The translations under genes were made by a program, and so were the position numbers. Positions 21,680-37,343 of a stretch of 64,000 bases of DNA are shown in pieces (position 1 is the first letter of the stretch; each line of letters opens with the position of its first letter). The notes beneath the pieces were generated by a model, which was not told the DNA's origin, did not search any database, and saw nothing but the letters and a program-made list of their open reading frames with translations. The stretch covers positions 56,727-120,726 of the IMG/VR virus record IMGVR_UViG_3300025581_000001, one strand, 5' to 3'. The stretch is from a virus.

Positions 21680-22297
21680 ATGGTAAGACCGGAAGACGTG
21701 GAAGGCTACAAGCGGATGGTGGCGGCGCACGCCCTGCTGGCGTGGCGCTACCTGCCACCGCAGGTCAGGGCGACGACCGACGTCGACGACCTGATTCAGG
21801 ACGGGCTGATGTTCGCCCGCTTCGGGCTGGCACCGAAGTGGAGGCCTGAATGGGGCAAGTTCACGACCTTGTTGCACGCCTCGCTGCCGCACTTCTACAT
21901 GAACAAGATAATGGCGAACGGCGGGCCACGCAAGGCGCAGCGCATTACGCTGGGCGCGGTGTCGATAGAGGACATCTGGATAGACCTGTGTCCCTACTTG
22001 CACGAGCAGCCGGTGGACAATGCGATGTGCGACCATGTGGTGCGGGCGTTCGAGCGCATCTACTGCGATGGCAGCCTTCCTTTGCGGGAGAGCCTGCGGC
22101 GCTGGTTCCTGAATGCTGGAGTTAATGCTCACAAGCATGGTGCGCGCTTTGAAAGAGACCGGCAGGAGTTCTTGCGGCTGGCGAGCAGGTACAACGTGGA
22201 CAAGACCGACTGCCAGATACTTATGGCGAGTGATCGTTGCCAACAGCGGCTTGCGAGTCTATTGCCCGAACAGCACTTTGTGCCGGTGACGTTGTGA
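21680..22297 (+). CDS. Sigma-70 region 2-like protein (putative phage sigma factor)
   Basis: DVDDLIQDGLMFA...KWRPEWGKFTTLL resembles the sigma region 2 consensus DLIQEG.IGL....FDP.RG.KFSTYA. Confidence 0.55.
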   Translation: MVRPEDVEGYKRMVAAHALLAWRYLPPQVRATTDVDDLIQDGLMFARFGLAPKWRPEWGKFTTLLHASLPHFYMNKIMANGGPRKAQRITLGAVSIEDIWIDLCPYLHEQPVDNAMCDHVVRAFERIYCDGSLPLRESLRRWFLNAGVNAHKHGARFERDRQEFLRLASRYNVDKTDCQILMASDRCQQRLASLLPEQHFVPVTL

Positions 22298-23046
22298 ACG
22301 GCTGCGGAAGACAAATCGGGGCTTTCGATTGCTGCACGGTGGTGCAGGGCGATTGTCTGAAGTTGATTCGGCAACTGCCAATGGGTGGCGTCAGCCTGTG
22401 CGCGACTGACCCTCCGTATGGAATCGACTACCAGTCGAACATGCGGACGCGAAGCGACAAGTTCAGGAAACTGGCCAACGACGCCAATGACTCGCGCTTT
22501 GAGATGTACCACCAGCTGCGGCGGGTGCTGGCGATGAACTCAGTCTTGGTCAGCTTCTGCAGCTGGAAGAACTACGCGGTGGACTACGTGGAGTTGCAAA
22601 AGTGGTTCACGGTGCGCAATGCCATCGTGTGGAACAAGGGAGGTGGAGGCATCGGCGACTTGAAGCACAGCCTAGCCACCGACTACGAGATGGCAATCGT
22701 GGCCCACTGGGGCAAATGCAAGCTGCGGGGCAAGCGCGACGGCAGCGTGTGGACGGTGGGCAAGATTAACCCCAACGCGATGGAGCACGCCACCGAGAAG
22801 CCGGTGGCGCTGTTCGAGAAGATCATCGCCAAGTTCTCCGACCCTGGTGCGTTGGTGCTCGACCCGTACTGCGGCGGGGGCAGCTGCCTGATTGCGGCGC
22901 GCAGGCTGGGGCGTCACTTCCTTGGATTCGAGCTGGATGAGAAGTACTGCCGAATGGCGGCTAAGCGGGTAGCGCGAGTGGAGCCCATGCCGCAGATGCA
23001 AACCAAGGGGAGCAAGTCGTTCGAGTACTTCAACGTGCTGCGATGA
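22294..23046 (+). CDS. Orphan amino-DNA methyltransferase 1 (beta class)
   Basis: TDPPYG precedes HATEKP and DPYCGGGS; start GTG overlaps the previous stop. Confidence 0.9.
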   Translation: MNGCGRQIGAFDCCTVVQGDCLKLIRQLPMGGVSLCATDPPYGIDYQSNMRTRSDKFRKLANDANDSRFEMYHQLRRVLAMNSVLVSFCSWKNYAVDYVELQKWFTVRNAIVWNKGGGGIGDLKHSLATDYEMAIVAHWGKCKLRGKRDGSVWTVGKINPNAMEHATEKPVALFEKIIAKFSDPGALVLDPYCGGGSCLIAARRLGRHFLGFELDEKYCRMAAKRVARVEPMPQMQTKGSKSFEYFNVLR

Positions 23047-23294
23047 GAATAAAGCCGGGTAGCGTATTCGTTTGTCAGCGATGTGAACGCCGCTTCACCG
23101 AGGAGGACTTCGGCAAGCTGCGCTTCTTCCCGTCGACCGGCATCTGCCGCGTCTGCTACATCGAGGCGATGGGCGACGGTAGCGTGTGCTTCGGCAAACG
23201 CGAGTACCTGGATGTTGAGAAGACGGCGTGCAAGCGGGTCTGTCCAGATAGATTTGTGTGCAGACTTTTCGTGAAGCTAGAGGAGTTGCTGTGA
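23043..23294 (+). CDS. Cys-rich zinc-finger protein
   Basis: CQRC, CRVC, CFG, CKRVC...C. Confidence 0.55.
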   Translation: MRIKPGSVFVCQRCERRFTEEDFGKLRFFPSTGICRVCYIEAMGDGSVCFGKREYLDVEKTACKRVCPDRFVCRLFVKLEELL

Positions 23295-23557
23295 GTGTTT
23301 TTGTAGACAATATGGAGGCTCCATTTGGCCGCATGATAATGTGCCACATGATTGCGGACTCGACAGAAGAGCTTTGCTTGATGGCCTGCAAGATTGGCGT
23401 TGCTCGGAAGTGGATTCAGAAGAAGGGGACTGTCTACGAGCACTTTGACATCTGCCAATCAAAGCGTAATAAGGCTATTGCGATGGGTGCGGTAGAGACT
23501 ACTAAAAAGGACTTGGTCCGAATGCTGCACGACCGCAGAAAGAAGGCGTCAAAGTGA
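23291..23557 (+). CDS. DUF4031-family protein
   Basis: VFVDNM....GRMIMCHMIADSTEEL...IGVARKWIQ....EHFDI...KR..AI..GA. Confidence 0.85.
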   Translation: MSVFVDNMEAPFGRMIMCHMIADSTEELCLMACKIGVARKWIQKKGTVYEHFDICQSKRNKAIAMGAVETTKKDLVRMLHDRRKKASK

Positions 23558-23901
23558 ACCCGTTCCGCAATCCCGGCTCGCTGGCTCACCAAGCTTTCAA
23601 GATGGCGCTGCAAGGCACCAGTTTCGATGCGCTGCAAGCCTTGGCGAAGAAGAAGGGTGGTGATGCCTACCATTTGTTCGCGCACCTGCGCGCAGGCAAG
23701 CACAAGAACTTCGAATGGGACGTGGACGAGCGGGATGGCAAGTTTGCAATCAGGAGGGTAAGACAGAGTGACATGAATGGGGGTGGTAGCAGTGAAGAAG
23801 AGAGCCGAGGACGCGATGGTGCGCCAACTACTGAAGGGAGTGGCCCTGGTGGAGCGACGCAAGGAACCACGCAAGGGCAAGCAGTACCGGAGGAAGAATG
23901 A
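23554..23901 (+). CDS. Hypothetical protein (3' end uncertain)
   Basis: Ordered N-terminal ~70 aa; the C-terminal part overlaps an alternative ORF at 23782-23920. Confidence 0.45.
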   Translation: MNPFRNPGSLAHQAFKMALQGTSFDALQALAKKKGGDAYHLFAHLRAGKHKNFEWDVDERDGKFAIRRVRQSDMNGGGSSEEESRGRDGAPTTEGSGPGGATQGTTQGQAVPEEE

Positions 23902-24668
23902 AGACCGCAAAGCGGCGTGAGGGTTGTGGTCACAAGATTGGTGACTATGATTGCTGCACTGTGGTGTGTGGTGACTCCCTGAAGCTGCTGAAGCAGTTGC
24001 CTGTGAAGTCTATCGGTGCGGTGGTGACCGATCCGCCGTATGGCACGCAGAACCTCTGCGGCGGGTACGGGATGCGGCAACTGTATCCCGGCGGAACTGG
24101 ACGTCGCATCCTCAACGATGAAGATCTGTCCATGATAAGCGGCGCTGTGCCGATGCTCTACCGAGCGCTAAGGAAAGACAGCTGGATGATGTCGTTCTGC
24201 GGAGCGCGCACCATGCTGGAGATGGGAGACTTGATTCGCGGGGTCGGGTTCAAGTCGGTCGGGGAGTTCGTATGGGACAAGGGGCACGGGCTGGGCTACG
24301 GCCCGATTCGCTACATGCACGAGTCGATACTGGTCTTTTCCAAGGGTAAGCCATCGGCTACGACGAGGTGCAGCATAAGCATCATACGTGCATGCCCACC
24401 TAATCAGGACGCGAGACACCGGCATCCACATGAGAAGCCATTGCGGGTGACACTGCGGCTGGTGTCCATCGTTCAGGGAGTGGTGCTCGACCCATTTTGC
24501 GGAACTGGTTCAGTGGTGGTTGCTGCGAAGATGCAGGGCAAGCACTTTCTCGGATTCGAGCTGGATGCGTCCTATGCAGCGGAGGCTCGCAGCAGGCTTG
24601 CTAAATGTTCGGTGATGCCGGTAGCAGGCCGGAAGAATGACGGCGCGTTTTTGTATCATGAAATGTGA
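23898..24668 (+). CDS. Orphan amino-DNA methyltransferase 2 (beta class)
   Basis: VTDPPYG, HPHEKP, DPFCGTGS. Confidence 0.9.
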   Translation: MKTAKRREGCGHKIGDYDCCTVVCGDSLKLLKQLPVKSIGAVVTDPPYGTQNLCGGYGMRQLYPGGTGRRILNDEDLSMISGAVPMLYRALRKDSWMMSFCGARTMLEMGDLIRGVGFKSVGEFVWDKGHGLGYGPIRYMHESILVFSKGKPSATTRCSISIIRACPPNQDARHRHPHEKPLRVTLRLVSIVQGVVLDPFCGTGSVVVAAKMQGKHFLGFELDASYAAEARSRLAKCSVMPVAGRKNDGAFLYHEM

Positions 24669-25029
24669 AGCTCTGGTGGTCATCCAAGACGTGCCGCAGA
24701 TGCAGCTATGCCAAGTGTGCCCGGAGCCGGGGCACTGCTGCCACGAGATAGTGCTCTATGAGGACGGCGGAGTCGTTCCGTTCAAGTACAAGCGGGAGAC
24801 GTGGCGGGCGGATGCCGCCGCCGACATGGAGAGGCAGGGCTTCCCGTTCGTGCCGGTCGCAATCGAGGAGGACTTGGGCGGCGGCATGGTTTCCGTCAAG
24901 CTTGCCTGCCCGAAGCTGTCGGCGGATGGGCGCTGCACGATCTACACAAGCAGGCCGCAGCTGTGCCGAGATTATGTTCCGGGCGGCGGTGGTATCTGCG
25001 TGTTCGACTTTGAGAAGGAGAGTGAATGA
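24658..25029 (+). CDS. YkgJ-family CxxCxxCC Zn/Fe-chelating protein
   Basis: CQVCPEPGHCC...CPKL...GRCTIY.SRPQLCRDY. Confidence 0.8.
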   Translation: MKCEALVVIQDVPQMQLCQVCPEPGHCCHEIVLYEDGGVVPFKYKRETWRADAAADMERQGFPFVPVAIEEDLGGGMVSVKLACPKLSADGRCTIYTSRPQLCRDYVPGGGGICVFDFEKESE

Positions 25030-26177
25030 AACAAGCGACAGAAGAGTGTGTGGTGAAGAAGGAGCGTCTGCTGGATGCGCTGGAGATGCTCGACCAGATT
25101 CCGGTGCGAACCAGCCTCCCGACATCGGTGTACGTGAAGGCTACGCCTGTCGGAGGAAGCAAGTTGAGATTCGTGCGCTTGTACTTGTCGGCTGAGGTCG
25201 CAGGCTATGTGGATATAGCACCATATGCTGGATTGTGGCCGTTTGACCATACGGTCTACCTCGACCGTCGATTGTTGTTTTCATTCTGCTTGGCGGCGCG
25301 AACTATCAAGTCGAAGTCGGACTTCAAGTTCAAGGTGCAGAACGGCGAGCTGCTGGTGACCAGTGGTACTCGTAAGCTGAAGCTGGCGTGTGCGGTCGAG
25401 ACTGCCGGATACGCGCAGGCTCCGGTTGGCGGCAGCAGGGTGGAAGTCGAGCCAGAGCTGGTGGCCATGTTGCAGCGGGCGAAGCAATGCACGCAGGGGG
25501 AGTGGGCCAAAGCTGAGCTAGAGACCGTGATGCTGAACCCCGAGGACGGAGGCATCGCGCTGTATGCGACTACTGGAATGCTGCACTTCCGCGCTCAAGT
25601 ACCCAGCGAGTTGAAGCTGAAACGTCCGACGCCATTCCCGCTGATGCTCATCGACATGCTGAAGGCCAAGGTGCTGGCTGGGCTGGAGGTCACCGACAAG
25701 GAAGTCGTGCTGGTCTACCGGCACGGCAAACTGTGGCAGTCGATGAATGCGGTAGCCCGCAAGGAGTTCCCACTGGTCAATTTCTCGAAGATGGTGGCCA
25801 AGCTGCGTCAGAGTTCGAAGCCATCGTTCACCCTCTATTCGACGGCGCTGTCGGCATCGGTGCAACGGTTGGTGAGTTATCTGGCGTCGGTGCGCAAGCT
25901 GGACTGGATAGTGACGCTCAGCGGCAAGAAGGAGGACAGCAGCCGACTGGGGATGGTGGTCAAGATTAGCGGCGCGCTGTTTCGCGAGCAGGTGAAGTTG
26001 AAGTCATCACTGACTAACGACGTGGATGTTGACTGGCCACTGGATAAAGTGGCGGGTCTGTTGGTGGATGTTGCTGAGAAGGGGCGAGTCATGGCGGTGT
26101 CGCTCGACCAGCAGGGCCGGGCGTATGTGAAAGTGGGCAGTGATATCGAGTTGGTGGTACCGCGTCGTCTTAGGTAG
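25026..26177 (+). CDS. DnaN-like sliding clamp (beta subunit-like)
   Basis: 383 aa, matching beta-clamp size. N-terminal KERLLDALEMLDQIPVRTSLP parallels DnaN; LYATTG and EFP sit at DnaN-like positions. Located between replication genes, with a clamp loader nearby. Confidence 0.55.
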   Translation: MKQATEECVVKKERLLDALEMLDQIPVRTSLPTSVYVKATPVGGSKLRFVRLYLSAEVAGYVDIAPYAGLWPFDHTVYLDRRLLFSFCLAARTIKSKSDFKFKVQNGELLVTSGTRKLKLACAVETAGYAQAPVGGSRVEVEPELVAMLQRAKQCTQGEWAKAELETVMLNPEDGGIALYATTGMLHFRAQVPSELKLKRPTPFPLMLIDMLKAKVLAGLEVTDKEVVLVYRHGKLWQSMNAVARKEFPLVNFSKMVAKLRQSSKPSFTLYSTALSASVQRLVSYLASVRKLDWIVTLSGKKEDSSRLGMVVKISGALFREQVKLKSSLTNDVDVDWPLDKVAGLLVDVAEKGRVMAVSLDQQGRAYVKVGSDIELVVPRRLR

Positions 26178-26183
26178 CCGAAA

Positions 26184-26846
26184 ATGGGGAAAGTAACAAA
26201 TGAAACCGGCAAGCGCTACGGAAGATTGACGGTTATTCGTCGGTCTGACAAAGCGACGTATCGAGGAGCCTCTTGGCTTTGTCGATGTGATTGTGGAATG
26301 AAAACCGTGGTTGCAAGTTGCCATCTTCGTAAGGGGGATACTAGAAGTTGCGGGTGCCTGCGAGTTGACGTTGGCAGAGAACTTCTCACTACGCATGGGC
26401 TTTACTACGAACGGATGTCAGAGTACTGGACTTGGAACGACATGATTCGTCGTTGCTATAGCCCGAAACGTAAACGGTATCCAGATTACGGTGGTCGTGG
26501 AATTCGAGTCTGCAAGCGTTGGCGGGAATCATTTGCTAACTTTTTCGCTGATATGGGGCCACGCCCAAAGAGGCTGACGCTGGAGCGCAAGAACAACGAT
26601 GGCAACTACACTCCGAAGAACTGCTGCTGGGCTACCCGAAAGCAGCAGGTTCACAACCGTCGTGATCTTGTTGCTACGCACAGAAAGCTAACCAGAGAGC
26701 AAGCTTACTTCATTCGAGATGCTTATAACGCTGGTGGGGTGACACAGCAGCAACTTGCCGATAAATTCAAAGTGCATGTCACGAACATAAGTATGATCAC
26801 ACGAAATAAGATTTGGATGCCTGTACCATCACGAGGTGTTCTGTGA
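26184..26846 (+). CDS. Free-standing HNH homing endonuclease with C-terminal HTH
   Basis: GKRYGRLTV, WLCRCDCG, SCGC, YGGRGIRVCKRW, LERKNNDGNYTPKNCCWAT; C-terminal TQQQLADKFKV. Confidence 0.88.
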   Translation: MGKVTNETGKRYGRLTVIRRSDKATYRGASWLCRCDCGMKTVVASCHLRKGDTRSCGCLRVDVGRELLTTHGLYYERMSEYWTWNDMIRRCYSPKRKRYPDYGGRGIRVCKRWRESFANFFADMGPRPKRLTLERKNNDGNYTPKNCCWATRKQQVHNRRDLVATHRKLTREQAYFIRDAYNAGGVTQQQLADKFKVHVTNISMITRNKIWMPVPSRGVL

Positions 26847-26856
26847 GGCGGCTGCG

Positions 26857-27928
26857 GTGAAGGGCTGCGGAAGAAAAATCGGGCCTTACAAGTGCTGCAC
26901 CGTAGTGCAAGGTGACTGGATGGACGTGCTTCGCAGGTTGCCAAGCGAGAGCGTGCAGTGCGTGGTGACCAGTCCGCCTTATTGGGGCTTGCGTGATTAT
27001 GGAACGGCGGTTTGGGAAGGAGGCGACCCGAAATGCAAACATCGTGGAAGTGTAGTACTTGCCGACCGCGCGAGCGCTAAAAGTCATAAGCAGAGAAGCA
27101 ACAAAAGGTGCGAACAGTGTGTTCGCAGGTGACTGTCGATGTGGTGCTCGTCGCGTAGATAATCAGCTCGGTCTGGAGCGAACGCCGGAAGAGTACGTGG
27201 CCAAGATAGTCGCAGGCTTTCACAAGGTGCGACGGGTGCTGCGCAGCGATGGGACGTGCTGGTTGAACTTGGGTGATAGCTACTACAACTACCGGCCGGG
27301 AGCGACTGCTTATGTTGCGCAGAGTCTTTCCAAGAAGAACCTGCGAGACATGCCCAGTCAGTGCGCGAAGCGCTCGGAGCAAATTGTTGGACTCAAGGAA
27401 AAAGACCTTGTTGGCATTCCGTGGATGACAGTCTTTGCCTTGCGCGCCGAAGGTTGGTATTTGCGGCAGGACATCATCTGGTCAAAGCCTGCGCCTATGC
27501 CAGAAAGCGTTCGTGATCGTTGTACTAAGGCGCATGAGTATATTTTCCATTTGACAAAATCGAGGAAGTACTTCTGCAATATGGGAGCGATTGCAGAACC
27601 CCTGCGAAATCGACGTTCTGTATGGACGATAGATACCAAGGGTTATAATGAAGCGCACTTTGCTACGTTTCCGCCAGAGCTTCCGACGCTTTGTATTAAG
27701 GCCGGTACTGAAAGGAAGGGACTAGTGCTTGATCCATTTGCCGGAGCAGGAACCACCTTGCTTATGGCGAAGAAATTGGGCCGACACTTCCTTGGAATTG
27801 AACTTAGTGAAGAGTACTGCCGGATGTTAACCAAGCGGCTGGCGAAGGTTGAGCCGATGCCCCACATGAAGAATCCACGCAAGCCCAACAACAGCCAGTT
27901 CGAGTACTTCAACGTGTTGGAGGACTAA
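26857..27928 (+). pseudogene. N4-cytosine-type DNA methyltransferase 3, split by a +1 frameshift near 27103-27106
   Basis: First frame has VTSPPYWGLRDYG; second frame has QLGLERTPEEYV, HFATFP, DPFAGAGTT. Removing one A from ACAAAAG joins them as KQRSNK-GANSVF. Confidence 0.8.
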
Positions 27929-30786
27929 TGCCACAGTTTGAAAACCTCCTCGGAATTGAACCACCCAAGTCACAGAAGCTGACCGGCGAGCACCGGGGCT
28001 GCGACTACTGCCCGGCGCGCAAGACGTGGCCGTACGGTATCAAGCCAGTGATGGGCACAGTCACTGGCACCAAAGACATCATGTGCATCGCGCAGAACCC
28101 CGGCAAGGATGAGAACGAGGAGGGGCGTGAACTTGTCGGGCCAAGTGGTAAGTTCTGGTGGGATGCACTGCGCAAGGTCGGTATCAAGCGCAGCGACTGC
28201 GATATCCAGAACGCGGTGCGCTGCTGGGTGGTGGAAAAGGACGAGGATGGACATCTGGTAGGCAAGAGTCTGAAAGCTACCGACAAGGAAGTGCACTGCT
28301 GTTCGGTCTACACCGAAGATGCGCTGAAGAAGTCACGGGCCAAGCTGTACCTGATAATCGGGCAGGTCGCCGCCAAGCAGGTGCTGGGCAATGAATGGAC
28401 AAAGGGCAGGCCGCAGTTGTTCTACTCTGACAAGTTGGGAGCGAGAGTAGCAATACTTGACCATCCAGCATACTTCCTGCGAGGTGGTGGCTGGGGCCAG
28501 CGGCGCAAGCAGTTCCACAAGATGCTGCGGGTGGTTGCCCACGAGTTGAAACATCCGGCACCCAAGGGGCTGGAGCGGTTCCACATACTCGGCCAGCAGG
28601 AATACATCAAGGTGCAGAGCTACGCGCAAGCGCTGCAAGCCAAGAAGGAACTAGAGCATGCACCCGGACGAGTGTCGTGCGACGCTGAATGGGACGACGG
28701 CAAGATGCTGGTCTATGGCTTCTGCCCCAAGCCGGGCCGCAGCTTGGTGTTCGTGCTCGACCACAAGGAAAACCTGAAGAATCCCGACCGTGACGCGGTG
28801 CGCGAAGTCGTCTGCGAAATCCTGCTGAATCCGAAAATCAGGAAAATCTTCGCACACGGCTCCGGCGACGTGAACGAGACCAAGAAGATGCTGGGGGTCA
28901 AGGTCAAGGGCTACGACTTCGATGCCGAGTACGCGGCCTACTTCTACGATTCCAGCATGAACTCGTTTGCTGTGGATACCTGGGCGGCAATGTGGTGGCC
29001 AGAGTTTACCGGCTACAAAGAGGTGGTGATGCCCGAGGCTGCTCCCGAGGGCATGGATTATAAGCGCGGGCGCAAGACCGGCAAGCTGCGCTACGGCAAC
29101 GTGCCACTGTCCAAGCTGGTGCCCTACAATGGCGCGGACTGCGACATTCCCAAGCGGGTTGAGCTGAAGGTCAGGAAGCACATACCGATGCCGCTGCTGC
29201 GGGTGTACATGGATGCGGCGTTCGTGGTCGACCGCATGGAGAAGGACGGCCCACTGCTCGACCGCAAGCACGTCGAGGTGATGAAGAAGATCTTCCCGGT
29301 GCGCTGGAACCACTACCGTGAGCAGTTGCGGCAGATGGCTGCCGACCCGAACTTCAATCCCAACTCACCTAAGCAGCTGAAGCCGATGTTGTATGAGCAC
29401 TTCAAGTTTGACTGCCCAGTCGAGCTGGAGCGGGGCCGCGAGGTCAAGCGCTGGTCGACCGACCAGGACACCGTGAAGTGGATAATTAGTGAGACCAATC
29501 ATGAGTTCCCCAAGACGCTGCAGCTGTTCAAGGCGGCGAACACGATTGTGTCGAAGTCGCTTAACAGCTATGAGAACTCTGCCAACAAGCACGGCGGGGC
29601 GCTGCAGACCATCTGGTGGCTGACCGGGGCCATCACCGGGCGCTTGCGCTCCGGTTCCGGCATCATGGGTGCGGCCAAAGAGAACGGCATTGTTAACCTG
29701 CAGAACGTCGACCTCGACCCCATTGTGCAGAACATGCTGATTAGCGACCCACGTTGGTATGACCTGTTCGAGGAGTGGAAGCGCTCGCTGCAGTATGAAT
29801 GGAAGTGGAATAAAGTCTTTGCTAAAGACCCTAAGACCAAAGGCTATACCGCTGATGCGGTGGAGCTGCAGGAACTATTGCTGCGCAAGGAACGATTTAA
29901 CGCCAACGACTTCGACGACTTGGAAGTCTACTTGGCGCTCGATCACGGACAACTAGAAGTGCGAGTGCTGGGGCAGATGTCGCAAGACCCGGTCTATCAG
30001 CGCATCTTCGAGTCGGGCAAGGACGTGCACGTGATGTTCGGCGCGGAGCTGACCGGCTGGGCACCAGAGCGAATAGCCCACGACAAAGACACCCGCGTGG
30101 CAGTCAAGGGAGTGCACTTTGCAATCATCTATGGTAAGCAGCCTCGTGGGGTGTGGCAGCAGCTGAAAGAGAAGGGTGTGAAGATTACGCTGGCACGAGT
30201 CGAGGACTTGTTCAATGCATATTGGAGCAAGTTCAAGCGTGCACGGGCGCTGCTGGAGTCATTCAAGGAGGAGGCCGAGACCAAGCACTACGTGACCAAT
30301 CTGTTTGGCTTCCGACGTCCCATTGGTGGAGACGAGAAGCGGAGTACGTTCTCAGAAAATCAAGCCGTGAACTCGCCAATCCAAGGGACGGCTGGGCAGC
30401 TGCTGGTGATTGCGATGGCGCTGATGCAGCGCAAGCGCAAGACCTACAAGCTGCTGCAACGGCTGCGGCTGGAGATTCACGACAACAACACGTGGAGCAA
30501 CAAGCTGAAGCATGTGGGTGCGATGCTGCCGCTGGCCAATAAGCTGCTGTGCGGCGACACCCTGGATGTGGTGCACAATGAGTTTGGCATCAACTGGAAC
30601 GTGCCTCTGGTGTCGGAGGCGTCGGCGGGGTTCCGCATGGGCACCATGATCGACCTTAAGGGTGACGAGTTCAACAGGGATGACTTCGTAGGCCGCTGGT
30701 GCCTGAAGTGCCTCGACAACAACCTCGCGGTGGAGCGAGAACTTAAGAGTGTAGAGAAATTCGGTGGCGCGGCGTTTGTGGTCTGA
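27928..30786 (+). CDS. polA: Family A DNA polymerase with N-terminal family-4 UDG-like domain and 3'-5' exonuclease
   Basis: UDG: CDYC, AQNPG..E...GRELVGPSG, NAVRC, HPAY. Exo: CDAE, YNGAD. Pol: TGRL, NLQN, DHGQLEVR (A), RVAVKGVHFAIIYG (B), NSPIQGTA, IHD (C). Confidence 0.93.
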   Translation: MPQFENLLGIEPPKSQKLTGEHRGCDYCPARKTWPYGIKPVMGTVTGTKDIMCIAQNPGKDENEEGRELVGPSGKFWWDALRKVGIKRSDCDIQNAVRCWVVEKDEDGHLVGKSLKATDKEVHCCSVYTEDALKKSRAKLYLIIGQVAAKQVLGNEWTKGRPQLFYSDKLGARVAILDHPAYFLRGGGWGQRRKQFHKMLRVVAHELKHPAPKGLERFHILGQQEYIKVQSYAQALQAKKELEHAPGRVSCDAEWDDGKMLVYGFCPKPGRSLVFVLDHKENLKNPDRDAVREVVCEILLNPKIRKIFAHGSGDVNETKKMLGVKVKGYDFDAEYAAYFYDSSMNSFAVDTWAAMWWPEFTGYKEVVMPEAAPEGMDYKRGRKTGKLRYGNVPLSKLVPYNGADCDIPKRVELKVRKHIPMPLLRVYMDAAFVVDRMEKDGPLLDRKHVEVMKKIFPVRWNHYREQLRQMAADPNFNPNSPKQLKPMLYEHFKFDCPVELERGREVKRWSTDQDTVKWIISETNHEFPKTLQLFKAANTIVSKSLNSYENSANKHGGALQTIWWLTGAITGRLRSGSGIMGAAKENGIVNLQNVDLDPIVQNMLISDPRWYDLFEEWKRSLQYEWKWNKVFAKDPKTKGYTADAVELQELLLRKERFNANDFDDLEVYLALDHGQLEVRVLGQMSQDPVYQRIFESGKDVHVMFGAELTGWAPERIAHDKDTRVAVKGVHFAIIYGKQPRGVWQQLKEKGVKITLARVEDLFNAYWSKFKRARALLESFKEEAETKHYVTNLFGFRRPIGGDEKRSTFSENQAVNSPIQGTAGQLLVIAMALMQRKRKTYKLLQRLRLEIHDNNTWSNKLKHVGAMLPLANKLLCGDTLDVVHNEFGINWNVPLVSEASAGFRMGTMIDLKGDEFNRDDFVGRWCLKCLDNNLAVERELKSVEKFGGAAFVV

Positions 30787-31705: not shown

Positions 31706-31893
31706 CTCGGGAGATTGTCTACGGCATTTTCATATTGCTCGTGATGGCATGGGCATACGTACTGGTCGGCGCGCTTATCGAGGCGTCGCTGCGTGCGACT
31801 GGGACGCTGGTCGTCACGTACTACAAAGCAAAGCAAGAGTGGTTAACCGCACTGGACGTTTCGACGTCCAGAATAACTAAGGAGAAGGAATAA
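31702..31893 (+). CDS. Small membrane protein
   Basis: One TM helix; AAGGAG just upstream and GTGA overlap. Confidence 0.5.
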   Translation: MTREIVYGIFILLVMAWAYVLVGALIEASLRATGTLVVTYYKAKQEWLTALDVSTSRITKEKE

Positions 31894-33137
31894 TGAGTTG
31901 GAAAGACACAGCAAAGCAACAGATGGTGAAAGCAGGCACGGGCAAGCGGTTCAAGTTGCAGAAGGGTGACAACAACCTGCGCGTGCTGCCGACCAAAGAT
32001 CACAAGGGCGACGAGGAGCCATCGGTATTCCACCCCTTCAATGTCCACCCCAACGTGGGGCCGGAGAAGCGCTGGCCGACCTGCGGCAAGGACGCCAATG
32101 GCAAGGGCCGTTGCTACACCTGCGACAAGAAGATTCCCAAGCTGGAAGCATCCAGCAGCCGCTCCGACCGCAAGCGGGCCGAGGACTCCAAGCCCATCGA
32201 GCAGCTGAAAATCCAGGTGGCCAGCTACAACCCCGAGGCCGAGAAGTTCAGCGGGCCGTTCCCGCTCGACCTGAAGGGCGGCGGTGCGGACTCGATCAGC
32301 TTCCGCATCCTGAAGGCGCTGCAGAACCCCAAGAAGGATTGCGTCGACCCCCGCCACGGTCACAACATCGGCATCGAGGCCACAGGCGACAACCTGTCGC
32401 GCCGCTACTCATCGCCGGTCATTGACGACGACGAGACGATAGTGCCCAAGAGCATCTTGCTCGCCATGAAGACGTTCGACGAGCTGATTCCCAAGTACTC
32501 GGAGCAGGCACACATTGACGCGTGGTCGACCCGCGCCCGCGACGAGGAAGAGGACTACGACGAGCCGGAAGAGGACGAGGAAGAGGAAGAAGAACGTCCC
32601 AAGAAGAAGGGCAAAGCTGTCGTCGAAGACGGTGATGAAGTGGAAGAAGTCGACGAGGAAGAAGACGAGCCTGCTCCCAAGAAGAAGCGCAAGGTCGTCG
32701 AGGACGAGGACGAAGAGGACGCCGAGGAAGAGGAACCGGCTCCCAAGAAGAAGAAGCGTCTAGCACCCGTCGAGGACGAGGACGAAGAGGAAGTCGAAGA
32801 AGAAGATGAAGAAGAGGAGCCAGCTCCCAAGAAGAAAGCCAAGGTCGTCGCTGAGGACGATGATGAGATCGATCCCGAATATGACAACATGGATGAGGAA
32901 GATGAGTCTGCGTCGAAGAAGAAGCGCAAGGTAGTCGAAGAAGAAGATGAAGAAGAGGAGCCCGCTCCCAAGAAGAAAGCCAAGAAGCCTCCGGTCGAGG
33001 AAGACGATGAAGAGGACGAGCCGGAAGACGACCCCGACCTGCCCGAGGAAGATGATGTGCCGGAAGACGAGGAAGAGGAACCAGCTCCCAAGAAGGTGAC
33101 TAAGAAGTCTGCGCTCAAGAAGAAAGTGCGGCGCTAA
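31893..33137 (+). CDS. Single-stranded DNA-binding protein (gp32-like) with a very long acidic/basic repeat tail
   Basis: FKLQKGDNNLRVLP, H...C...CYTC zinc ligands, DPRHGHNI; C-terminal ~200 aa of EEEEPAPKKK repeats. Confidence 0.75.
   Translation: MSWKDTAKQQMVKAGTGKRFKLQKGDNNLRVLPTKDHKGDEEPSVFHPFNVHPNVGPEKRWPTCGKDANGKGRCYTCDKKIPKLEASSSRSDRKRAEDSKPIEQLKIQVASYNPEAEKFSGPFPLDLKGGGADSISFRILKALQNPKKDCVDPRHGHNIGIEATGDNLSRRYSSPVIDDDETIVPKSILLAMKTFDELIPKYSEQAHIDAWSTRARDEEEDYDEPEEDEEEEEERPKKKGKAVVEDGDEVEEVDEEEDEPAPKKKRKVVEDEDEEDAEEEEPAPKKKKRLAPVEDEDEEEVEEEDEEEEPAPKKKAKVVAEDDDEIDPEYDNMDEEDESASKKKRKVVEEEDEEEEPAPKKKAKKPPVEEDDEEDEPEDDPDLPEEDDVPEDEEEEPAPKKVTKKSALKKKVRR
32540..33125 (+). repeat. Coding tandem repeats encoding (D/E)n-PAPKKK
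   Basis: GCTCCCAAGAAG recurs five times, plus degenerate copies (RPKKK, SASKKK). Confidence 0.85.
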
Positions 33138-33556: not shown

Positions 33557-33822
33557 ACCTGCAAGGTACGCATATTCTATTTATTGAATCTGGGCCTACT
33601 GGGAAGAAGACAGAAAGGTGGAATGTGTTTTCTAAATACGAGATAACTGAGAATGACTCGTTCGCTGGGCTTCTCGGTCAAGTGAAGTGGTTTGGCAGGT
33701 GGAGAAAGTACAGCTTCTTCCCGGTAATGGGTGCAATCTTCGAGGAGATTTGTTTGCGGGATATTGCTCAGTTTTGCGTCGACGCTACCAAAGAGCATCG
33801 CCAACGGAAGAAGGCTGCATGA
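33553..33822 (+). CDS. Conserved phage hypothetical protein
   Basis: KTERWNV...LGQVKWFGRWRKYSFFP.....FEEICLRDIA. Confidence 0.6.
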   Translation: MNLQGTHILFIESGPTGKKTERWNVFSKYEITENDSFAGLLGQVKWFGRWRKYSFFPVMGAIFEEICLRDIAQFCVDATKEHRQRKKAA

Positions 33823-34862
33823 TCACCAAGAAGAAAATCCGCAAGCTGACTCCGCAGCAGGAAGTCAAACTGTTGCAAAAAGCTCTTGGCTATGTTTGCT
33901 TTCAGGAAGATGAGACCTCGGTCTATGAGCATCTCGACTTGGGCAATCCCGACGCTAACGAACTGCTGGGCGACCGTGAGTTGGGTATGCGATGGGGTTG
34001 TATCGTTGAGTTGCACGGGCCGAACTCCTCTGGCAAGACGTGGTTGGCTACACGGATATCCGCCATCGCGCAGCAGCAGGACGAGCACGTGTACGTGGCC
34101 AAGGCCGACCTCGAAGGCAGCAACGACGACCGCTTCAATGAGAAGGTAGGCATCGACCTGCAGCGCTTCTACTTGTTCAAGGCGTCATTGGCGGTCTCGG
34201 TACAGGAGCTGGCCAAGATAGACGCCCTGCGTAAGAAGAAGGCGGAAGGCGGTAAGCTGACGACGTTGCAGGAAGAGAAGCTGGCCACGCCTCCCGAAGC
34301 CTACGAGCAGTCGGCGGAGCAGGTCTGTGATGAGATCGAGGCGTGGATAAAGTTCCGCCACGTCCGTGACCCGCGAGCCAAGATTGTGCTCATCATCGAC
34401 AGCGTGACTGGCATGCTGGTGTCGGAGGAGGACGAGGGCCATCTGTCCGACCAGAACATGCGCACCAAGGTTAGCCTTGCGTCGTTCCTGTCGTTGTTGT
34501 GCCGTCGTTGGGTGCGGCTGGCGTCGAACTACAAGGTCATCATGCTGTTCATCAACCAGGAGCGCGAGGCTCCGGGCGTGATGTACGGCAGCCCCATCCG
34601 CACTAGTGGTGGTAATGCACTGAAGTTTTATGCGGTGGTACGGGTGCGCATCCGGCGCTCTGGCAATGGCCGCATTTTGAAAGACAAGAAGATGATCGGG
34701 CTGCGCAGTATCCTGCTGAATGAGAAGAACAAGGTCGGAGGCCGCGAAGGTGGGGAGCTGGCCTTCAAGGGTTATCCACGCACAGGAAAGTGGTCGTGGA
34801 TAAGCAAAGAGCAGGCTGACAAGGAAAGTGCGGCTGGCAGGAAAGCGAAGGTGAAGAAATGA
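33819..34862 (+). CDS. recA: RecA/UvsX recombinase
   Basis: IVELHGPNSSGKT, LIIDSV, FINQ.RE.PGVMYGSP..TSGGNALKFYA.VR, KNKV. Confidence 0.92.
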   Translation: MITKKKIRKLTPQQEVKLLQKALGYVCFQEDETSVYEHLDLGNPDANELLGDRELGMRWGCIVELHGPNSSGKTWLATRISAIAQQQDEHVYVAKADLEGSNDDRFNEKVGIDLQRFYLFKASLAVSVQELAKIDALRKKKAEGGKLTTLQEEKLATPPEAYEQSAEQVCDEIEAWIKFRHVRDPRAKIVLIIDSVTGMLVSEEDEGHLSDQNMRTKVSLASFLSLLCRRWVRLASNYKVIMLFINQEREAPGVMYGSPIRTSGGNALKFYAVVRVRIRRSGNGRILKDKKMIGLRSILLNEKNKVGGREGGELAFKGYPRTGKWSWISKEQADKESAAGRKAKVKK

Positions 34863-36042: not shown

Positions 36043-36342
36043 ATGATGAAGAAAAAGGATGACGCTGTGGTGGTTGTTCATTCTGAGAAGGTTCATGATG
36101 AACGTCAGGTTCCTGTATATCTTGGTGACAGCTTTCGCGAGTTGGTTCGCGACCGTGTTGGAGTTCAGGGGCTGCTTCAATACGCCGAGCGGCGCTTTCG
36201 GGAACTCGGGGTTATGGGAGAAGCAATCTGGAATAAGATTTTCCTTGAATGCGGGGTGACGCGGGGAACCGACGACCGATGGGAGTATGACCAGCAACAT
36301 AACGTAATTCGGTTGGTGAAGAAAGCTGCGCCGAAGAAATGA
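36043..36342 (+). CDS. Hypothetical protein
   Basis: AAGGAGG RBS. Confidence 0.55.
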   Translation: MMKKKDDAVVVVHSEKVHDERQVPVYLGDSFRELVRDRVGVQGLLQYAERRFRELGVMGEAIWNKIFLECGVTRGTDDRWEYDQQHNVIRLVKKAAPKK

Positions 36343-37343
36343 AGAAGCAACAACTATCGCTCAGCCTGCGGCCCAAGAGCTTCACCGAGCTGGTCGGTCA
36401 GCAGGCTGTGGTCAAGAGTATCGAGAAGCATGTCGCAGGCGAGCGGCTGGCGACCGCGTGGCTGTTTACCGGAGCCCCCGGCACTGGCAAGACCAGCATT
36501 GCCCGCATCATTGCACTGTCGTTGCAGTGCACCCATGCACCGTTCGGATACCCTTGCATTGAGTGCCGACGCAACCGCAGTAGCTTCGACATTAAAGAGG
36601 AGAAGGCTGCGACTCTAACATCTGGCGAGACACACGGCGAGGCATTGGAAGTATGGCTCAATGACCGGAACTTTCTTCCGTCGGAAGGTTCGCAACGACG
36701 GGTCTACATCCTCGATGAGCCACAGACGATTTCCGGTAAGGGACAGGATTTCCTGCTCGACGCATTGGAGCCGAAGAACCAGGTCGAGACATCGGTGCTC
36801 ATCCTGTGCACGTCGCAGCCGAGTAGATTGAACAAGGCAATGCGCCGCCGCTGCGTGAACTACCACATGCGAACGCTCAACGAGGACGAGGTCGAGCAGT
36901 ATGTAACGTGGGCTTTGCAGAAGGCAGGCAGCAAGCTTCCAGCCAAGCCTTTATCGGATGCGCTGGTTGCGAAGGAGGTCAGCGCGCCCGGCTTCCTGGT
37001 GATGGCCTGTGAACGCTATCTGACCGGGATGCCAGCGAAGGAAGCGGCGCAGGTGGACGCCGACTTCGGCTATGATCATCGGGTGCTGACGCGGGCCATT
37101 TTCCGGGGTGATTGGGAAGCAGCTCGTACCGAATTGCAGAAGGCGACGCCGGAGGATGCTGGGTCAATCCAGATGGGGGTCGCTGGCTACTTGCGGGCAG
37201 TGCTGCTGAACAGTGATGCCGGGGAGCAGGCGGCTGCGGTGTCCAAGGGCATCAAGATGCTGTCGACGAATTCGCCGGATAGGTTGATGCTGAGCATTAT
37301 TTCGGCAGTTAGCTACGACCTTTGTCGAACTTTTAAGAGGTAA
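36339..37343 (+). CDS. dnaX: Clamp loader AAA+ ATPase (DnaX gamma/tau-like)
   Basis: RPKSFTELVGQ, LFTGAPGTGKTS, C....PCIEC zinc module, VYILDE, RRRC (SRC motif). Confidence 0.88.
   Translation: MKKQQLSLSLRPKSFTELVGQQAVVKSIEKHVAGERLATAWLFTGAPGTGKTSIARIIALSLQCTHAPFGYPCIECRRNRSSFDIKEEKAATLTSGETHGEALEVWLNDRNFLPSEGSQRRVYILDEPQTISGKGQDFLLDALEPKNQVETSVLILCTSQPSRLNKAMRRRCVNYHMRTLNEDEVEQYVTWALQKAGSKLPAKPLSDALVAKEVSAPGFLVMACERYLTGMPAKEAAQVDADFGYDHRVLTRAIFRGDWEAARTELQKATPEDAGSIQMGVAGYLRAVLLNSDAGEQAAAVSKGIKMLSTNSPDRLMLSIISAVSYDLCRTFKR

What the first reader, a model, noticed from the sequence alone, without database searches (positions are those of the whole stretch)
22294..27928. Three orphan DNA methyltransferases with divergent cores but shared N- and C-terminal caps, clustered around the clamp gene
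Seen: N-caps are NGCGRQIGAFDCCTVVQGD, EGCGHKIGDYDCCTVVCGD and KGCGRKIGPYKCCTVVQGD. C-tails are RVARVEPMP...SFEYFNVLR, RLAKCSVMP...AFLYHEM and RLAKVEPMP...QFEYFNVLED. The cores differ (DPPY, DPPY, SPPY). MTases 1 and 3 are also near-identical in DNA at both ends (GTGAAsGGCTGCGGAAGAmAAATCGGG; TTCGAGTACTTCAACGTG). The polymerase starts MPQFENLL, resembling QFEYF. Inference: (a) the aromatic tail is a docking peptide for the phage clamp, giving replication-coupled methylation analogous to DNMT1-PCNA, and/or (b) the conserved ends are recombination arms for swapping MTase specificities against host restriction.
Basis: partly seen in the sequence, partly recalled or inferred. Interest (0 to 1): 0.8.

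Follow-up and report, generated by a model that had tools for sequence, protein, structure and literature searches.

The report
Clamp-hooked mosaic phage DNA methyltransferases
Three DNA methyltransferase genes of an uncultured peat phage share a small cysteine-rich head and a floppy aromatic tail that most likely hooks them onto the phage's own DNA sliding clamp, so that new DNA is methylated as it is copied, although binding has only been modelled.

Summary
Three PF01555 methyltransferase genes flank a gene that I show is a DnaN-type sliding clamp (fold TM about 0.8 to solved beta clamps). All quoted caps, tails and DNA matches are present.

The tails [S/Q]FEYFNVL (M1, M3) and FLYHEM (M2) sit on disordered C-termini and are kept in orthologs while their linkers vary. 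In one complex model the M1 tail docks in the canonical peptide cleft of the phage clamp (score 0.68, best control 0.00). Uncapped relatives often end in QxxLF-like motifs instead.

The cap C-x8-CC is not tied to this clamp. Nine other viral records carry it on methyltransferases with unrelated middles and QPSLF...EQLSL tails, and none of the nine has this clamp.

The ends and the middles have different nearest relatives, so the genes are mosaics. M1 and M3 also share identical codons over their first 14 codons, which points to recent exchange.

Reading (a), clamp docking, is supported by modelling only. Reading (b), recombination arms, is partly supported as history, not as function. This scan has noted clamp-docking tails on phage methyltransferases in other genomes. 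I found no paper on it.

The parts
22294..23046 (+). M1, beta-class DNA methyltransferase (DPPY), 250 aa from GTG
   Evidence: PF01555 scores 100.4 bits. The AF2 model has pLDDT 87.4, and its best PDB folds are CcrM and M.BceJIV.
22294..22353 (+). M1 N-cap VNGCGRQIGAFDCCTVVQGD (C-x8-CC hairpin plus first strand)
   Evidence: In the model, residues 1-20 have pLDDT 85-96 and strands at 7-8 and 11-12.
22978..23043 (+). M1 disordered tail VEPMPQMQTKGSKSFEYFNVLR; aromatic core FEYFNVL at 23020-23040
   Evidence: pLDDT is about 55 and 48 for residues 231-250. Residues 241-250 form the modelled interface with the clamp.
23898..24668 (+). M2, beta-class DNA methyltransferase (DPPY), 256 aa; cap at 23922-23975, tail FLYHEM at 24648-24665
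   Evidence: PF01555 scores 73.8 bits. Orthologs P0374, P0375 and P0385 keep FLY[HY]E[ML].
25026..26177 (+). Phage-encoded DnaN-type (three-domain) beta sliding clamp, 383 aa
   Evidence: AF2 pLDDT is 94.8. Foldseek gives E 4e-20 and TM 0.76-0.83 to E. coli and Pseudomonas beta clamps. The profile hits 6dj8 at E 3e-4.
26184..26846 (+). HNH homing-endonuclease-like gene, ends 10 nt before M3
   Evidence: PHROG 374 HNH endonuclease, E 4.9e-59.
26857..27105 (+). M3 N-part in frame 1: cap, SPPY, start of the Cys-rich insert (frame 1 runs on to a stop at 27130-27132)
   Evidence: KQRSNK matches KQYTNV of homolog P0123.
27103..27108 (+). Frameshift site AAA-AGG: reading must move +1 here to continue the methyltransferase
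   Evidence: Frame 1 fits homologs up to KQRSNK, and frame 2 fits them from GANSVFAGDCRCGA. The site is identical in two further assemblies.
27107..27928 (+). M3 C-part in the +1 frame; tail QFEYFNVLED at 27896-27925
   Evidence: PF01555 scores 137.4 bits. Translation confirmed.
27928..30786 (+). Family A DNA polymerase with N-terminal family-4-like UDG domain; starts MPQFENLL (27928-27951)
   Evidence: PF00476 at 1.1e-47 and PF03167 at 7.6e-14. Translation confirmed.
36339..37343 (+). DnaX-like clamp-loader AAA+ subunit (context: the phage has clamp-loading capacity)
   Evidence: PF13177 at 1.5e-14. TIGR02397 dnaX_nterm at 5.3e-35, below its cut-off.

Best explanation
The three genes are beta-class (PF01555) DNA methyltransferases. 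They belong to a mosaic 'capped' group found in several uncultured phages.

Each has an end module and a middle module. The end module is an N-terminal Cys-rich hairpin (C-x8-CC) that leads into the first strand, plus the C-terminal AdoMet-binding half (..LDPxxGxG..KLGRHFLGFE..YCxIA..R), plus a flexible tail. The middle is a catalytic and target-recognition region drawn from different methyltransferase clades.

The tail is a short linear motif that docks the enzyme in the peptide cleft of a sliding clamp. In phages without a clamp of their own it reads QPxLF...EQLxL, like the bacterial clamp-binding motif. In this phage, which encodes a divergent DnaN-type clamp and a DnaX-like loader, it has become aromatic: [S/Q]FEYFNVL in M1 and M3, and FLYHEM in M2.

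The enzymes would ride the clamps left on newly made phage DNA and methylate it before host restriction enzymes can cut. This would work like DNMT1 on PCNA.

Shown: gene identities, the clamp fold, the distribution of cap and tail, mosaicism, and the frameshift.
Modelled only: tail-clamp contact.
Inferred: replication-coupled methylation, the co-evolved aromatic motif, and a structural (possibly metal-binding) role for the cap.

M3 needs a +1 shift at AAA-AGG to be made whole. It is either a recent pseudogene or a recoded gene.
For: Clamp:
- AF2 pLDDT 94.8, and a Foldseek TM of about 0.8 to solved DnaN clamps.
- A DnaX-like loader lies at 36339-37343.

Tail:
- It is disordered in the M1 model.
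- The motif is kept while the linkers change. M1 orthologs have SFEYFDVLR, KYDYFDMVGE and KFEYFDMVSE. M2 orthologs have AFLYHEM.., SFLYYEL and KFLYYEL.
- In the phage's own ORF set, a terminal [FYW]x[YF][FYHW] motif occurs on the three methyltransferases and on only one other ORF.

Complex model:
- Score 0.68, 0.68 and 0.69 in three runs; best of 3 controls 0.00. The tool reports that this mark was reached by 58 of 80 solved complexes and 2 of 110 mismatched pairs.
- The runs share at least 67% of their contacts. Partner pLDDT is 43.
- The interface is M1 residues 241-250 with clamp residues 162, 182, 184-187, 249, 252-253, 256, 338, 363-365, 377 and 379-382.
- These follow in order the E. coli pocket residues 152, 172, 174-177, 242, 246-247, 320/323, 344 and 360-365 listed in PMC11139829 (passages read).

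Relatives:
- Tails with Qxx[LMI][FL] or Qxx[LMI]x[FL] occur in 36 of 80 M1 homologs, 16 of 76 M3 homologs and 30 of 59 M2 homologs that have a recognisable C-end. Body rates are 0.81, 0.04 and 0.85 per 1000 aa.
- Of the 8 full-length capped viral methyltransferases read, 7 carry a Q..LF element after the last helix, and 5 of those continue with EQLxL/F (QLEF, QLSL twice, QLTL).

Mosaic:
- The M1 middle is 54-65% identical to uncapped proteins whose ends are 29-47% identical to M1's.
- Capped proteins share 49-65% identity in the ends but 6-29% in the middles.
- 524 uncapped pairs at the same middle identity have N 49.6 (sd 10.3) and C 51.8 (sd 8.6). M1 against uncapped proteins gives 34.0 and 38.5.
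Against: - No binding has been measured. Only one model job was run, on M1 alone. Clamp-peptide complexes are abundant in the PDB, so the pass may come from likeness. The partner's own fold confidence is low (pLDDT 43).
- The aromatic motif does not meet the published canonical definition Q-aliphatic-x-[L/M]-[F/L]. M1 lacks Gln, and M2 (FLYHEM) is further away and was not modelled.
- Co-occurrence of the aromatic tail with this clamp family could not be tested.
- The homolog sets are related sequences, so the enrichment counts are not independent events. Endings such as RLRQxxLF could be a structural family feature.
- Family A polymerases often work without a clamp, so the clamp's main client in this phage is unknown.
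- M3 is broken, so at most two enzymes are certainly made.
Confidence: 0.55

Rival explanations
1. Cassette exchange. The conserved ends exist chiefly as homology arms, so that middles (specificities) can be swapped between paralogs or co-infecting phages to keep up with host restriction systems. On this reading the tails and caps are carried along.
For: - Ends and middles have different nearest relatives.
- M1 and M3 share identical codons in the first 14 codons (9 of 9) and over FEYFNV (6 of 7), while the rest of the genes are at random expectation.
- Other capped genes use other codons for the same cap residues, so the identity is recent exchange and not a general RNA-level constraint.
- A homing-type HNH endonuclease ends 10 nt upstream of M3, and a RecA-like recombinase lies at 33687-34862.
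- Motif-coding DNA (DPPY, LDPxxG) gives 21-22-nt stretches that are 86% identical between paralogs.
Against: - The identical tracts are very short (about 27-42 nt and 22 nt). Beyond them the ends are only 66-75% identical in DNA.
- M2's cap uses different codons throughout, so its conservation is at the protein level.
- Protein-level conservation of cap and tail across distant phages calls for a protein function.
- No polymorphic swapped forms were seen; the two other assemblies are identical.
Confidence: 0.2
2. Host-clamp hook. The tails dock on the host's beta clamp, not on the phage clamp, and the neighbouring phage clamp gene is a coincidence of the replication module.
For: - Capped methyltransferases with near-canonical QPxLF...EQLxL tails occur in 9 viral records, none of which holds this clamp. 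Three of the nine are complete. The same profile does find the clamp in the own genome.
- Many uncapped homologs end in QxxLF-type motifs.
Against: - In this phage lineage the canonical motif is replaced by FxY[FYH]. That change is easier to explain by a different, phage-encoded receptor.
- The model accepts the tail in the phage clamp's cleft.
- The host is unknown, so its clamp could not be modelled.
Confidence: 0.15
3. Ordinary family features. Cap and tail are neutral or purely structural extensions of one methyltransferase subfamily. The similarity of the ends is ordinary conservation of motifs IV and I-III against a fast-evolving target-recognition middle.
For: - N- and C-terminal motif regions are the conserved parts of all PF01555 enzymes.
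- The cap is confidently packed on the domain.
- The cap co-varies with a His in RHFLGFE: 16 of 16 capped against 17 of 204 uncapped. This suggests a structural role.
Against: - The tails are disordered, yet their cores are conserved through variable linkers.
- The M1 and M3 middles are 52-65% identical to clades that lack cap and tail, so the pattern is not simply a fast middle.
- Q-motif enrichment in tails is far above the body rate.
Confidence: 0.1

Closest known systems
Bacterial beta-clamp-binding motif (CBM) clients: Pol II, Pol IV, Pol III alpha, Hda, MutS/MutL (review PMC11139829, passages read)
   Same: A short motif on a disordered terminus. In the model it occupies the same two-subsite cleft between domains II and III of a DnaN-type clamp. 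Relatives carry QxxLF-type tails.
   Different: The client is a DNA methyltransferase. The word 'methyl' does not occur in that review. The motif here is aromatic ([S/Q]FEYF, FLYH), not Q-aliphatic-x-[L/M]-[F/L]. The clamp is phage-encoded and has no Pfam or NCBIfam hit.
DNMT1-PCNA (eukaryotic maintenance methylation at the fork; as described in PMC9690074, passages read)
   Same: The proposed logic is the same: a methyltransferase is tethered to the replication clamp, so that new DNA is methylated promptly.
   Different: The clamp family is unrelated (PCNA trimer against DnaN dimer). The motif differs (PIP box), as do the enzyme class (C5 against beta-class N6/N4) and the purpose (epigenetic maintenance against probable anti-restriction). 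This is an analogy only.
CcrM / M.BceJIV / M.MboIIA / M.RsrI beta-class methyltransferases (solved structures)
   Same: The M1 model matches them at Foldseek E 3e-19 to 1e-13, TM 0.66-0.73. The motif order is the same: IV ... I.
   Different: None of the 120+119+119 listed homologs other than close relatives has the C-x8-CC cap; 3, 0 and 3 have it outside the window's own proteins. CcrM's C-terminal part is a folded domain (recalled), not a short tail.
Earlier notes of this scan on clamp-docking tails of phage methyltransferases in other genomes
   Same: The same idea appears there: methyltransferases ending in the peptide type that holds the sliding clamp, some in phages with their own clamp, one with a mirrored motif at the polymerase start.
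   Different: Those report LF-, LW- or T4 gp45-type tails. Here the tail is FxY[FYH], it comes with a shared N-cap and a mosaic build, and one gene is frameshifted. They are AI notes, not independent evidence.

Membership tests
PF01555 beta-class N6/N4 DNA methyltransferase | Pfam model over its gathering score | tested here: met
   M1 100.4, M2 73.8 and M3 C-part 137.4 bits against a cut-off of 26.7.
PF01555 beta-class N6/N4 DNA methyltransferase | Motif IV (D/S)PP(Y/F) N-terminal to motif I FxGxG (permuted beta order) | tested here: met
   DPPY, DPPY and SPPY come first, then LDPYCGGGS, LDPFCGTGS and LDPFAGAGT.
PF01555 beta-class N6/N4 DNA methyltransferase | Uninterrupted reading frame | tested here: not met
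   This holds for M3 only. Motif IV and motif I are in different frames, with the break at 27103-27108. The break is reproduced in two other assemblies. M1 and M2 are intact.
DnaN beta sliding clamp | Three-domain clamp fold of about 370 aa | tested here: met
   The model has pLDDT 94.8 and Foldseek TM 0.76-0.83 over about 395 columns to E. coli, Pseudomonas, Caulobacter and Thermotoga DnaN.
DnaN beta sliding clamp | Sequence-family membership (Pfam or NCBIfam DnaN models) | tested here: not met
   No Pfam, PHROG or NCBIfam hit. The only signal is a profile hit to 6dj8 at E 3e-4.
DnaN beta sliding clamp | Head-to-tail dimer ring loaded by a clamp loader | not tested
   No dimer was modelled. 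A DnaX-like AAA+ subunit is encoded at 36339-37343.
Beta-clamp-binding motif client | Canonical motif Q-aliphatic-x-[L/M]-[F/L] or Q-aliphatic-x-[L/M]-x-[F/L] (PMC11139829) | tested here: not met
   M3 has QFEYF (Phe at position 2, Tyr at 4). M1 has SFEYF (no Gln). M2 has AFLYH. So these are filed as working like a CBM, not as canonical members.
Beta-clamp-binding motif client | Motif lies in a disordered terminus or loop | tested here: met
   M1 residues 231-250 have pLDDT of about 55 and 48, and the segments 236-242 and 248-250 are under 50.
Beta-clamp-binding motif client | Binds the cleft between domains II and III | tested here: inconclusive
   Model only: score 0.68 against a best control of 0.00, with interface residues that map in order onto the E. 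coli pocket. No measurement.
Programmed +1 ribosomal frameshift (prfB/Ty1-like) | P-site codon whose tRNA can re-pair in +1, followed by a slow A-site codon | tested here: met
   In AAA-AGG, Lys AAA re-pairs with AAA in the +1 frame. AGG is 9% of Arg codons, at 5.8 per 1000 codons.
Programmed +1 ribosomal frameshift (prfB/Ty1-like) | Stimulator, avoidance of the site in other genes, or conservation of the shift in relatives | tested here: inconclusive
   I saw no SD-like element upstream by eye. In-frame AAA-AGG occurs 3 times against 1.7 expected, so it is not avoided. No close M3 relative was found to compare; the best is 58% identical.

The most novel reading that the evidence does not exclude
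This phage runs a private clamp code. Its divergent DnaN-type clamp has co-evolved with an aromatic FxY[FYH] docking peptide that replaces the bacterial QLxLF motif on all its DNA methyltransferases, and perhaps as QFENLL on its polymerase. Phage enzymes, and not host clamp clients, would then populate the clamps on phage DNA, and methylation would be coupled to synthesis. More widely, C-terminal clamp hooks would be a general, unreported feature of small orphan beta-class methyltransferases of phages. The shared Cys3 cap plus the co-varying His would form a metal site that ties the two ends of a swappable scaffold together.
Probability: 0.3. Interest if true: 0.75.

Novelty: new variant of a known kind. 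Interest (0 to 1): 0.62.

Why it matters
If the tails do hold the clamp, bacteria-infecting viruses have a counterpart of DNMT1-PCNA. Methylation would be delivered at the fork, which would explain how orphan phage methyltransferases protect DNA fast enough to beat host restriction. The known beta-clamp interactome, as listed in a 2024 review, contains no methyltransferase.

A phage clamp with an altered peptide preference would also be a natural example of an orthogonal clamp-client pair. That would be useful for understanding clamp specificity and possibly as a tool.

The mosaic build (a common end scaffold around different specificity modules) bears on how phages diversify methylation specificities.

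Tried and rejected
- Close relatives with genomic context. The search for related loci in viral contigs returned nothing usable with the clamp, the M3 C-part (18), P0241 (56), P0002 (57) or P0243 (90).
- The metagenome scan with the M1-ortholog alignment kept 80 loci. A strict cap regex over their ORFs found none. The 20 loci whose matches reached the query's N-end were read by eye and are ParB-fused or ordinary uncapped enzymes.
- tblastn of the clamp against 50,697 phage records gave no match. blastn of the region against phages gave only short matches of 3-4% of the query, to methyltransferase and DUF4031 genes.
- The DNA pattern for an aromatic tail downstream of HFLGFE gave 18 IMG/VR hits. 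All are chance, with a stop before the tail or no methyltransferase.
- A tree of the middle region (68 of 69 rows of A7, P0003 left out) was unusable for the distant capped proteins: end branches were up to 10 changes per column and long branches met. Its AU test did not finish and was not repeated, so I rely on the per-segment identities instead.
- I considered that the clamp loader's N-terminal QLSLSL is a clamp-binding motif and set this aside. The DnaX model aligns from residue 4, so it may be the ordinary DnaX N-terminus.
- I considered an assembly error for the M3 frameshift and rejected it.
- I considered a shift at the stop AGG-TGA-C or at the first A4 run (27079-27082). Both fit the homologs worse than 27103-27108.
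- Supplements of papers were not consulted.
- Literature searches for a bacterial or phage methyltransferase that binds a sliding clamp found none (one search searched phage-encoded clamps). Only listings and abstracts were seen, except for passages of PMC9690074 and PMC11139829.

Full report
**What the window is.** The window is the second half of a complete 120,726-bp viral record with direct terminal repeats. Matching runs are peat metagenomes. The region 17-45 kb is a replication module. It holds:
- a DnaB-like helicase
- a primase
- a 5'-3' exonuclease
- the three methyltransferases
- a clamp
- an HNH endonuclease
- a family A polymerase with an N-terminal UDG-like domain
- a RecA-like protein
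- a DnaX-like clamp-loader subunit
- an SbcCD-like protein
- ThyX

**Observation.** M1 (22294-23046), M2 (23898-24668) and M3 (26857-27928) are the only PF01555 genes in the genome. M1 and M3 share 75% DNA identity over the first 88 nt and 21 of 22 nt over FEYFNVL.

Codon analysis shows that synonymous sites between the paralogs are saturated overall: 15 same codons against 13.2 expected, and 34 against 29.4. In the first 14 codons of M1 and M3, however, all 9 identical residues use the same codon, including the rare GGA and AGA. My hand estimate from the phage's codon usage is about 3e-4. Eight capped genes from other phages, and M2, use other codons for the same residues. The identity is therefore recent exchange within this genome, not an RNA-level constraint.

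**The missed frameshift.** M3's cap and SPPY lie in one frame, and the rest lies in the +1 frame. Homologs such as P0123 (..CDHRG..GAGKQYTNVGSNRVYSGDCRCGAKR..) fit frame 1 through KQRSNK and frame 2 from GANSVFAGDCRCGARR. This places the shift at AAC-AAA-AGG (27103-27108).

The same sequence is present with 0 differences in a separate assembly at depth 65 (possibly the source sample) and in a 262-nt contig of another sample and study. It is therefore not an assembly error.

AAA can re-pair in the +1 frame, and AGG is rare at 5.8 per 1000 codons. A programmed +1 shift is therefore possible. The dicodon is not avoided elsewhere (3 found against 1.7 expected), I saw no stimulator, and no close relative exists for comparison. 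I leave it as pseudogene or recoding.

**The clamp.** The 383-aa product of 25026-26177 has no Pfam, PHROG or NCBIfam hit and no phage homolog by tblastn. It does have 132 metagenomic homologs of about 370 aa. A profile of 76 of them touches a solved beta clamp at E 3e-4. The AF2 model (pLDDT 94.8) matches E. coli, Pseudomonas, Caulobacter and Thermotoga DnaN with TM 0.76-0.83. It is a DnaN-type clamp.

**The tails.**
- In the M1 model the last 20 residues are disordered.
- Orthologs keep the aromatic core while the linkers vary. M1-type orthologs have SFEYFDVLR, KYDYFDMVGE and KFEYFDMVSE. M2-type orthologs have AFLYHEMGANE, SFLYYEL and KFLYYEL.
- Among the phage's own ORFs this kind of terminal motif is found on the three methyltransferases and one other ORF.
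- The single complex job (clamp alignment plus M1 residues 206-250) scored 0.68, 0.68 and 0.69, with a best control of 0.00 among 3. The tool reports that this mark was reached by 58 of 80 solved complexes and 2 of 110 mismatched pairs. At least 67% of contacts are shared between runs, and partner pLDDT is 43.
- The contacts are M1 241-250 with clamp 162, 182, 184-187, 249, 252-253, 256, 338, 363-365, 377 and 379-382. These run parallel to the E. coli pocket residues 152, 172, 174-177, 242, 246-247, 320/323, 344 and 360-365 (PMC11139829).
- Many clamp-peptide complexes are solved, so this shows likeness to them. It does not show binding.

**Relatives.**
- Among 118 M1 homologs of 150 aa or more, 48 end in Qxx[LMI][FL]-type motifs within the last 10 residues, against 14 of 2720 body windows.
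- With tails defined from the last helix, the counts are 36 of 80, 16 of 76 and 30 of 59 for the M1, M3 and M2 homolog sets.
- These sequences are related to each other, so the counts are not independent events.
- The canonical motif as defined in the review is Q-aliphatic-x-[L/M]-[F/L]. The window's tails do not meet it, so I say they work like a clamp-binding motif, not that they are canonical members.

**The cap.**
- Only 3 of 120 M1 homologs, 0 of 119 M3 homologs and 4 of 120 M2 homologs (one of these being M2 itself) have it.
- A degenerate DNA pattern for it found 9 IMG/VR records. All 9 are PF01555-type genes with the cap, different sequences after DPPY, and tails such as VEAQPSLFEPKPEQLTLGDD and IDAQPSLFEQKAEQLSL.
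- None of the 9 records encodes the phage clamp family, and three of them are complete. The same profile finds the clamp in the own genome.
- The cap is therefore a feature of a wider phage methyltransferase group and is independent of this clamp.
- In the M1 model it is a confident small hairpin that leads into the first strand.
- It co-varies with the His of RHFLGFE: 16 of 16 capped against 17 of 204 uncapped. This suggests, without showing, a Cys3-His site that links the two ends.

**Mosaic build.** Per-segment identities show that M1's middle groups with uncapped enzymes (54-65% identity), whose ends are only 29-47% identical to M1's. Capped enzymes share 49-65% identity in the ends but 6-29% in the middles. 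M3 behaves likewise (middle 52-61% to uncapped relatives), although only its first 15 or so residues and its C-end look grafted. In 524 uncapped pairs matched for middle identity, the ends average 49.6 and 51.8%, against M1's 34.0 and 38.5%.

Together with the short identical-codon tracts and the HNH gene 10 nt upstream of M3, this supports recombination as history. It does not show that the ends are selected as arms.

**Verdict.** The most likely reading is clamp-tethered, replication-coupled methylation by mosaic enzymes, with an aromatic variant of the hook matched to the phage's own clamp. I give it about 0.55. The recombination-arm reading is a partial and compatible rival.

The scan's own earlier notes report similar clamp-docking tails on phage methyltransferases in other genomes. 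These are leads, not evidence. My literature searches found no paper describing a bacterial or phage methyltransferase that binds a sliding clamp. The 2024 beta-clamp review does not contain the word 'methyl'.

Noticed in passing
window 27103-27108 (within 26857-27928): M3 needs a +1 shift at AAA-AGG to be read whole. The break is identical in two other assemblies. It could be a recent pseudogene or a programmed +1 frameshift (Lys tRNA re-pairs, and AGG is rare).
   Followed up: partly
window 26184-26846: An HNH homing-endonuclease-like gene (PHROG 374, E 5e-59) sits between the clamp gene and M3, ending 10 nt before M3's start. It may be linked to the short gene-conversion tract at M3's 5' end.
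   Followed up: no
window 36339-37343: A DnaX-like clamp-loader subunit begins MKKQQLSLSLRPKS. QLSLSL looks like a hexameric clamp-binding motif, but it may simply be the conserved DnaX N-terminus, since the model aligns from residue 4.
   Followed up: partly
window 27928-30786: A family A DNA polymerase is fused to an N-terminal family-4-like uracil-DNA-glycosylase domain. Its first residues, MPQFENLL, resemble the M3 tail QFEYFNVL. Docking was not tested.
   Followed up: no
homolog sets P0002-P0120, P0122-P0240, P0374-P0492: Many small orphan PF01555 methyltransferases from metagenomes end in RLRQxxLF, QLKLF, QPxLF...QxxLF and the like. These are clamp-binding-motif-like C-termini, far above the rate in the protein bodies.
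   Followed up: partly
M1 residue H208 (window 22915-22917) and equivalents: The His in ..GRHFLGFE.. is present in 16 of 16 capped methyltransferases but in 17 of 204 uncapped ones. With the three invariant cap cysteines it could form a Cys3-His metal site.
   Followed up: partly
window 24637-25029 and 23258-23557: Small genes lie between the methyltransferases: a CxxCxxCC (YkgJ-like, PF03692) putative Zn/Fe-binding protein that overlaps M2's end, and a DUF4031 protein that is 73-74% identical in DNA to Pseudomonas phage D3 orf63.5.
   Followed up: no
window 31893-33137: A 414-aa protein whose C-terminal two thirds is a run of acidic stretches punctuated by EEPAPKKK(A/R)K repeats. It has no Pfam hit.
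   Followed up: no
L099 (G003) and L104 (G006): Two of the capped-methyltransferase viral records hold a second PF01555 gene (239 and 275 aa). I did not inspect their ends.
   Followed up: no
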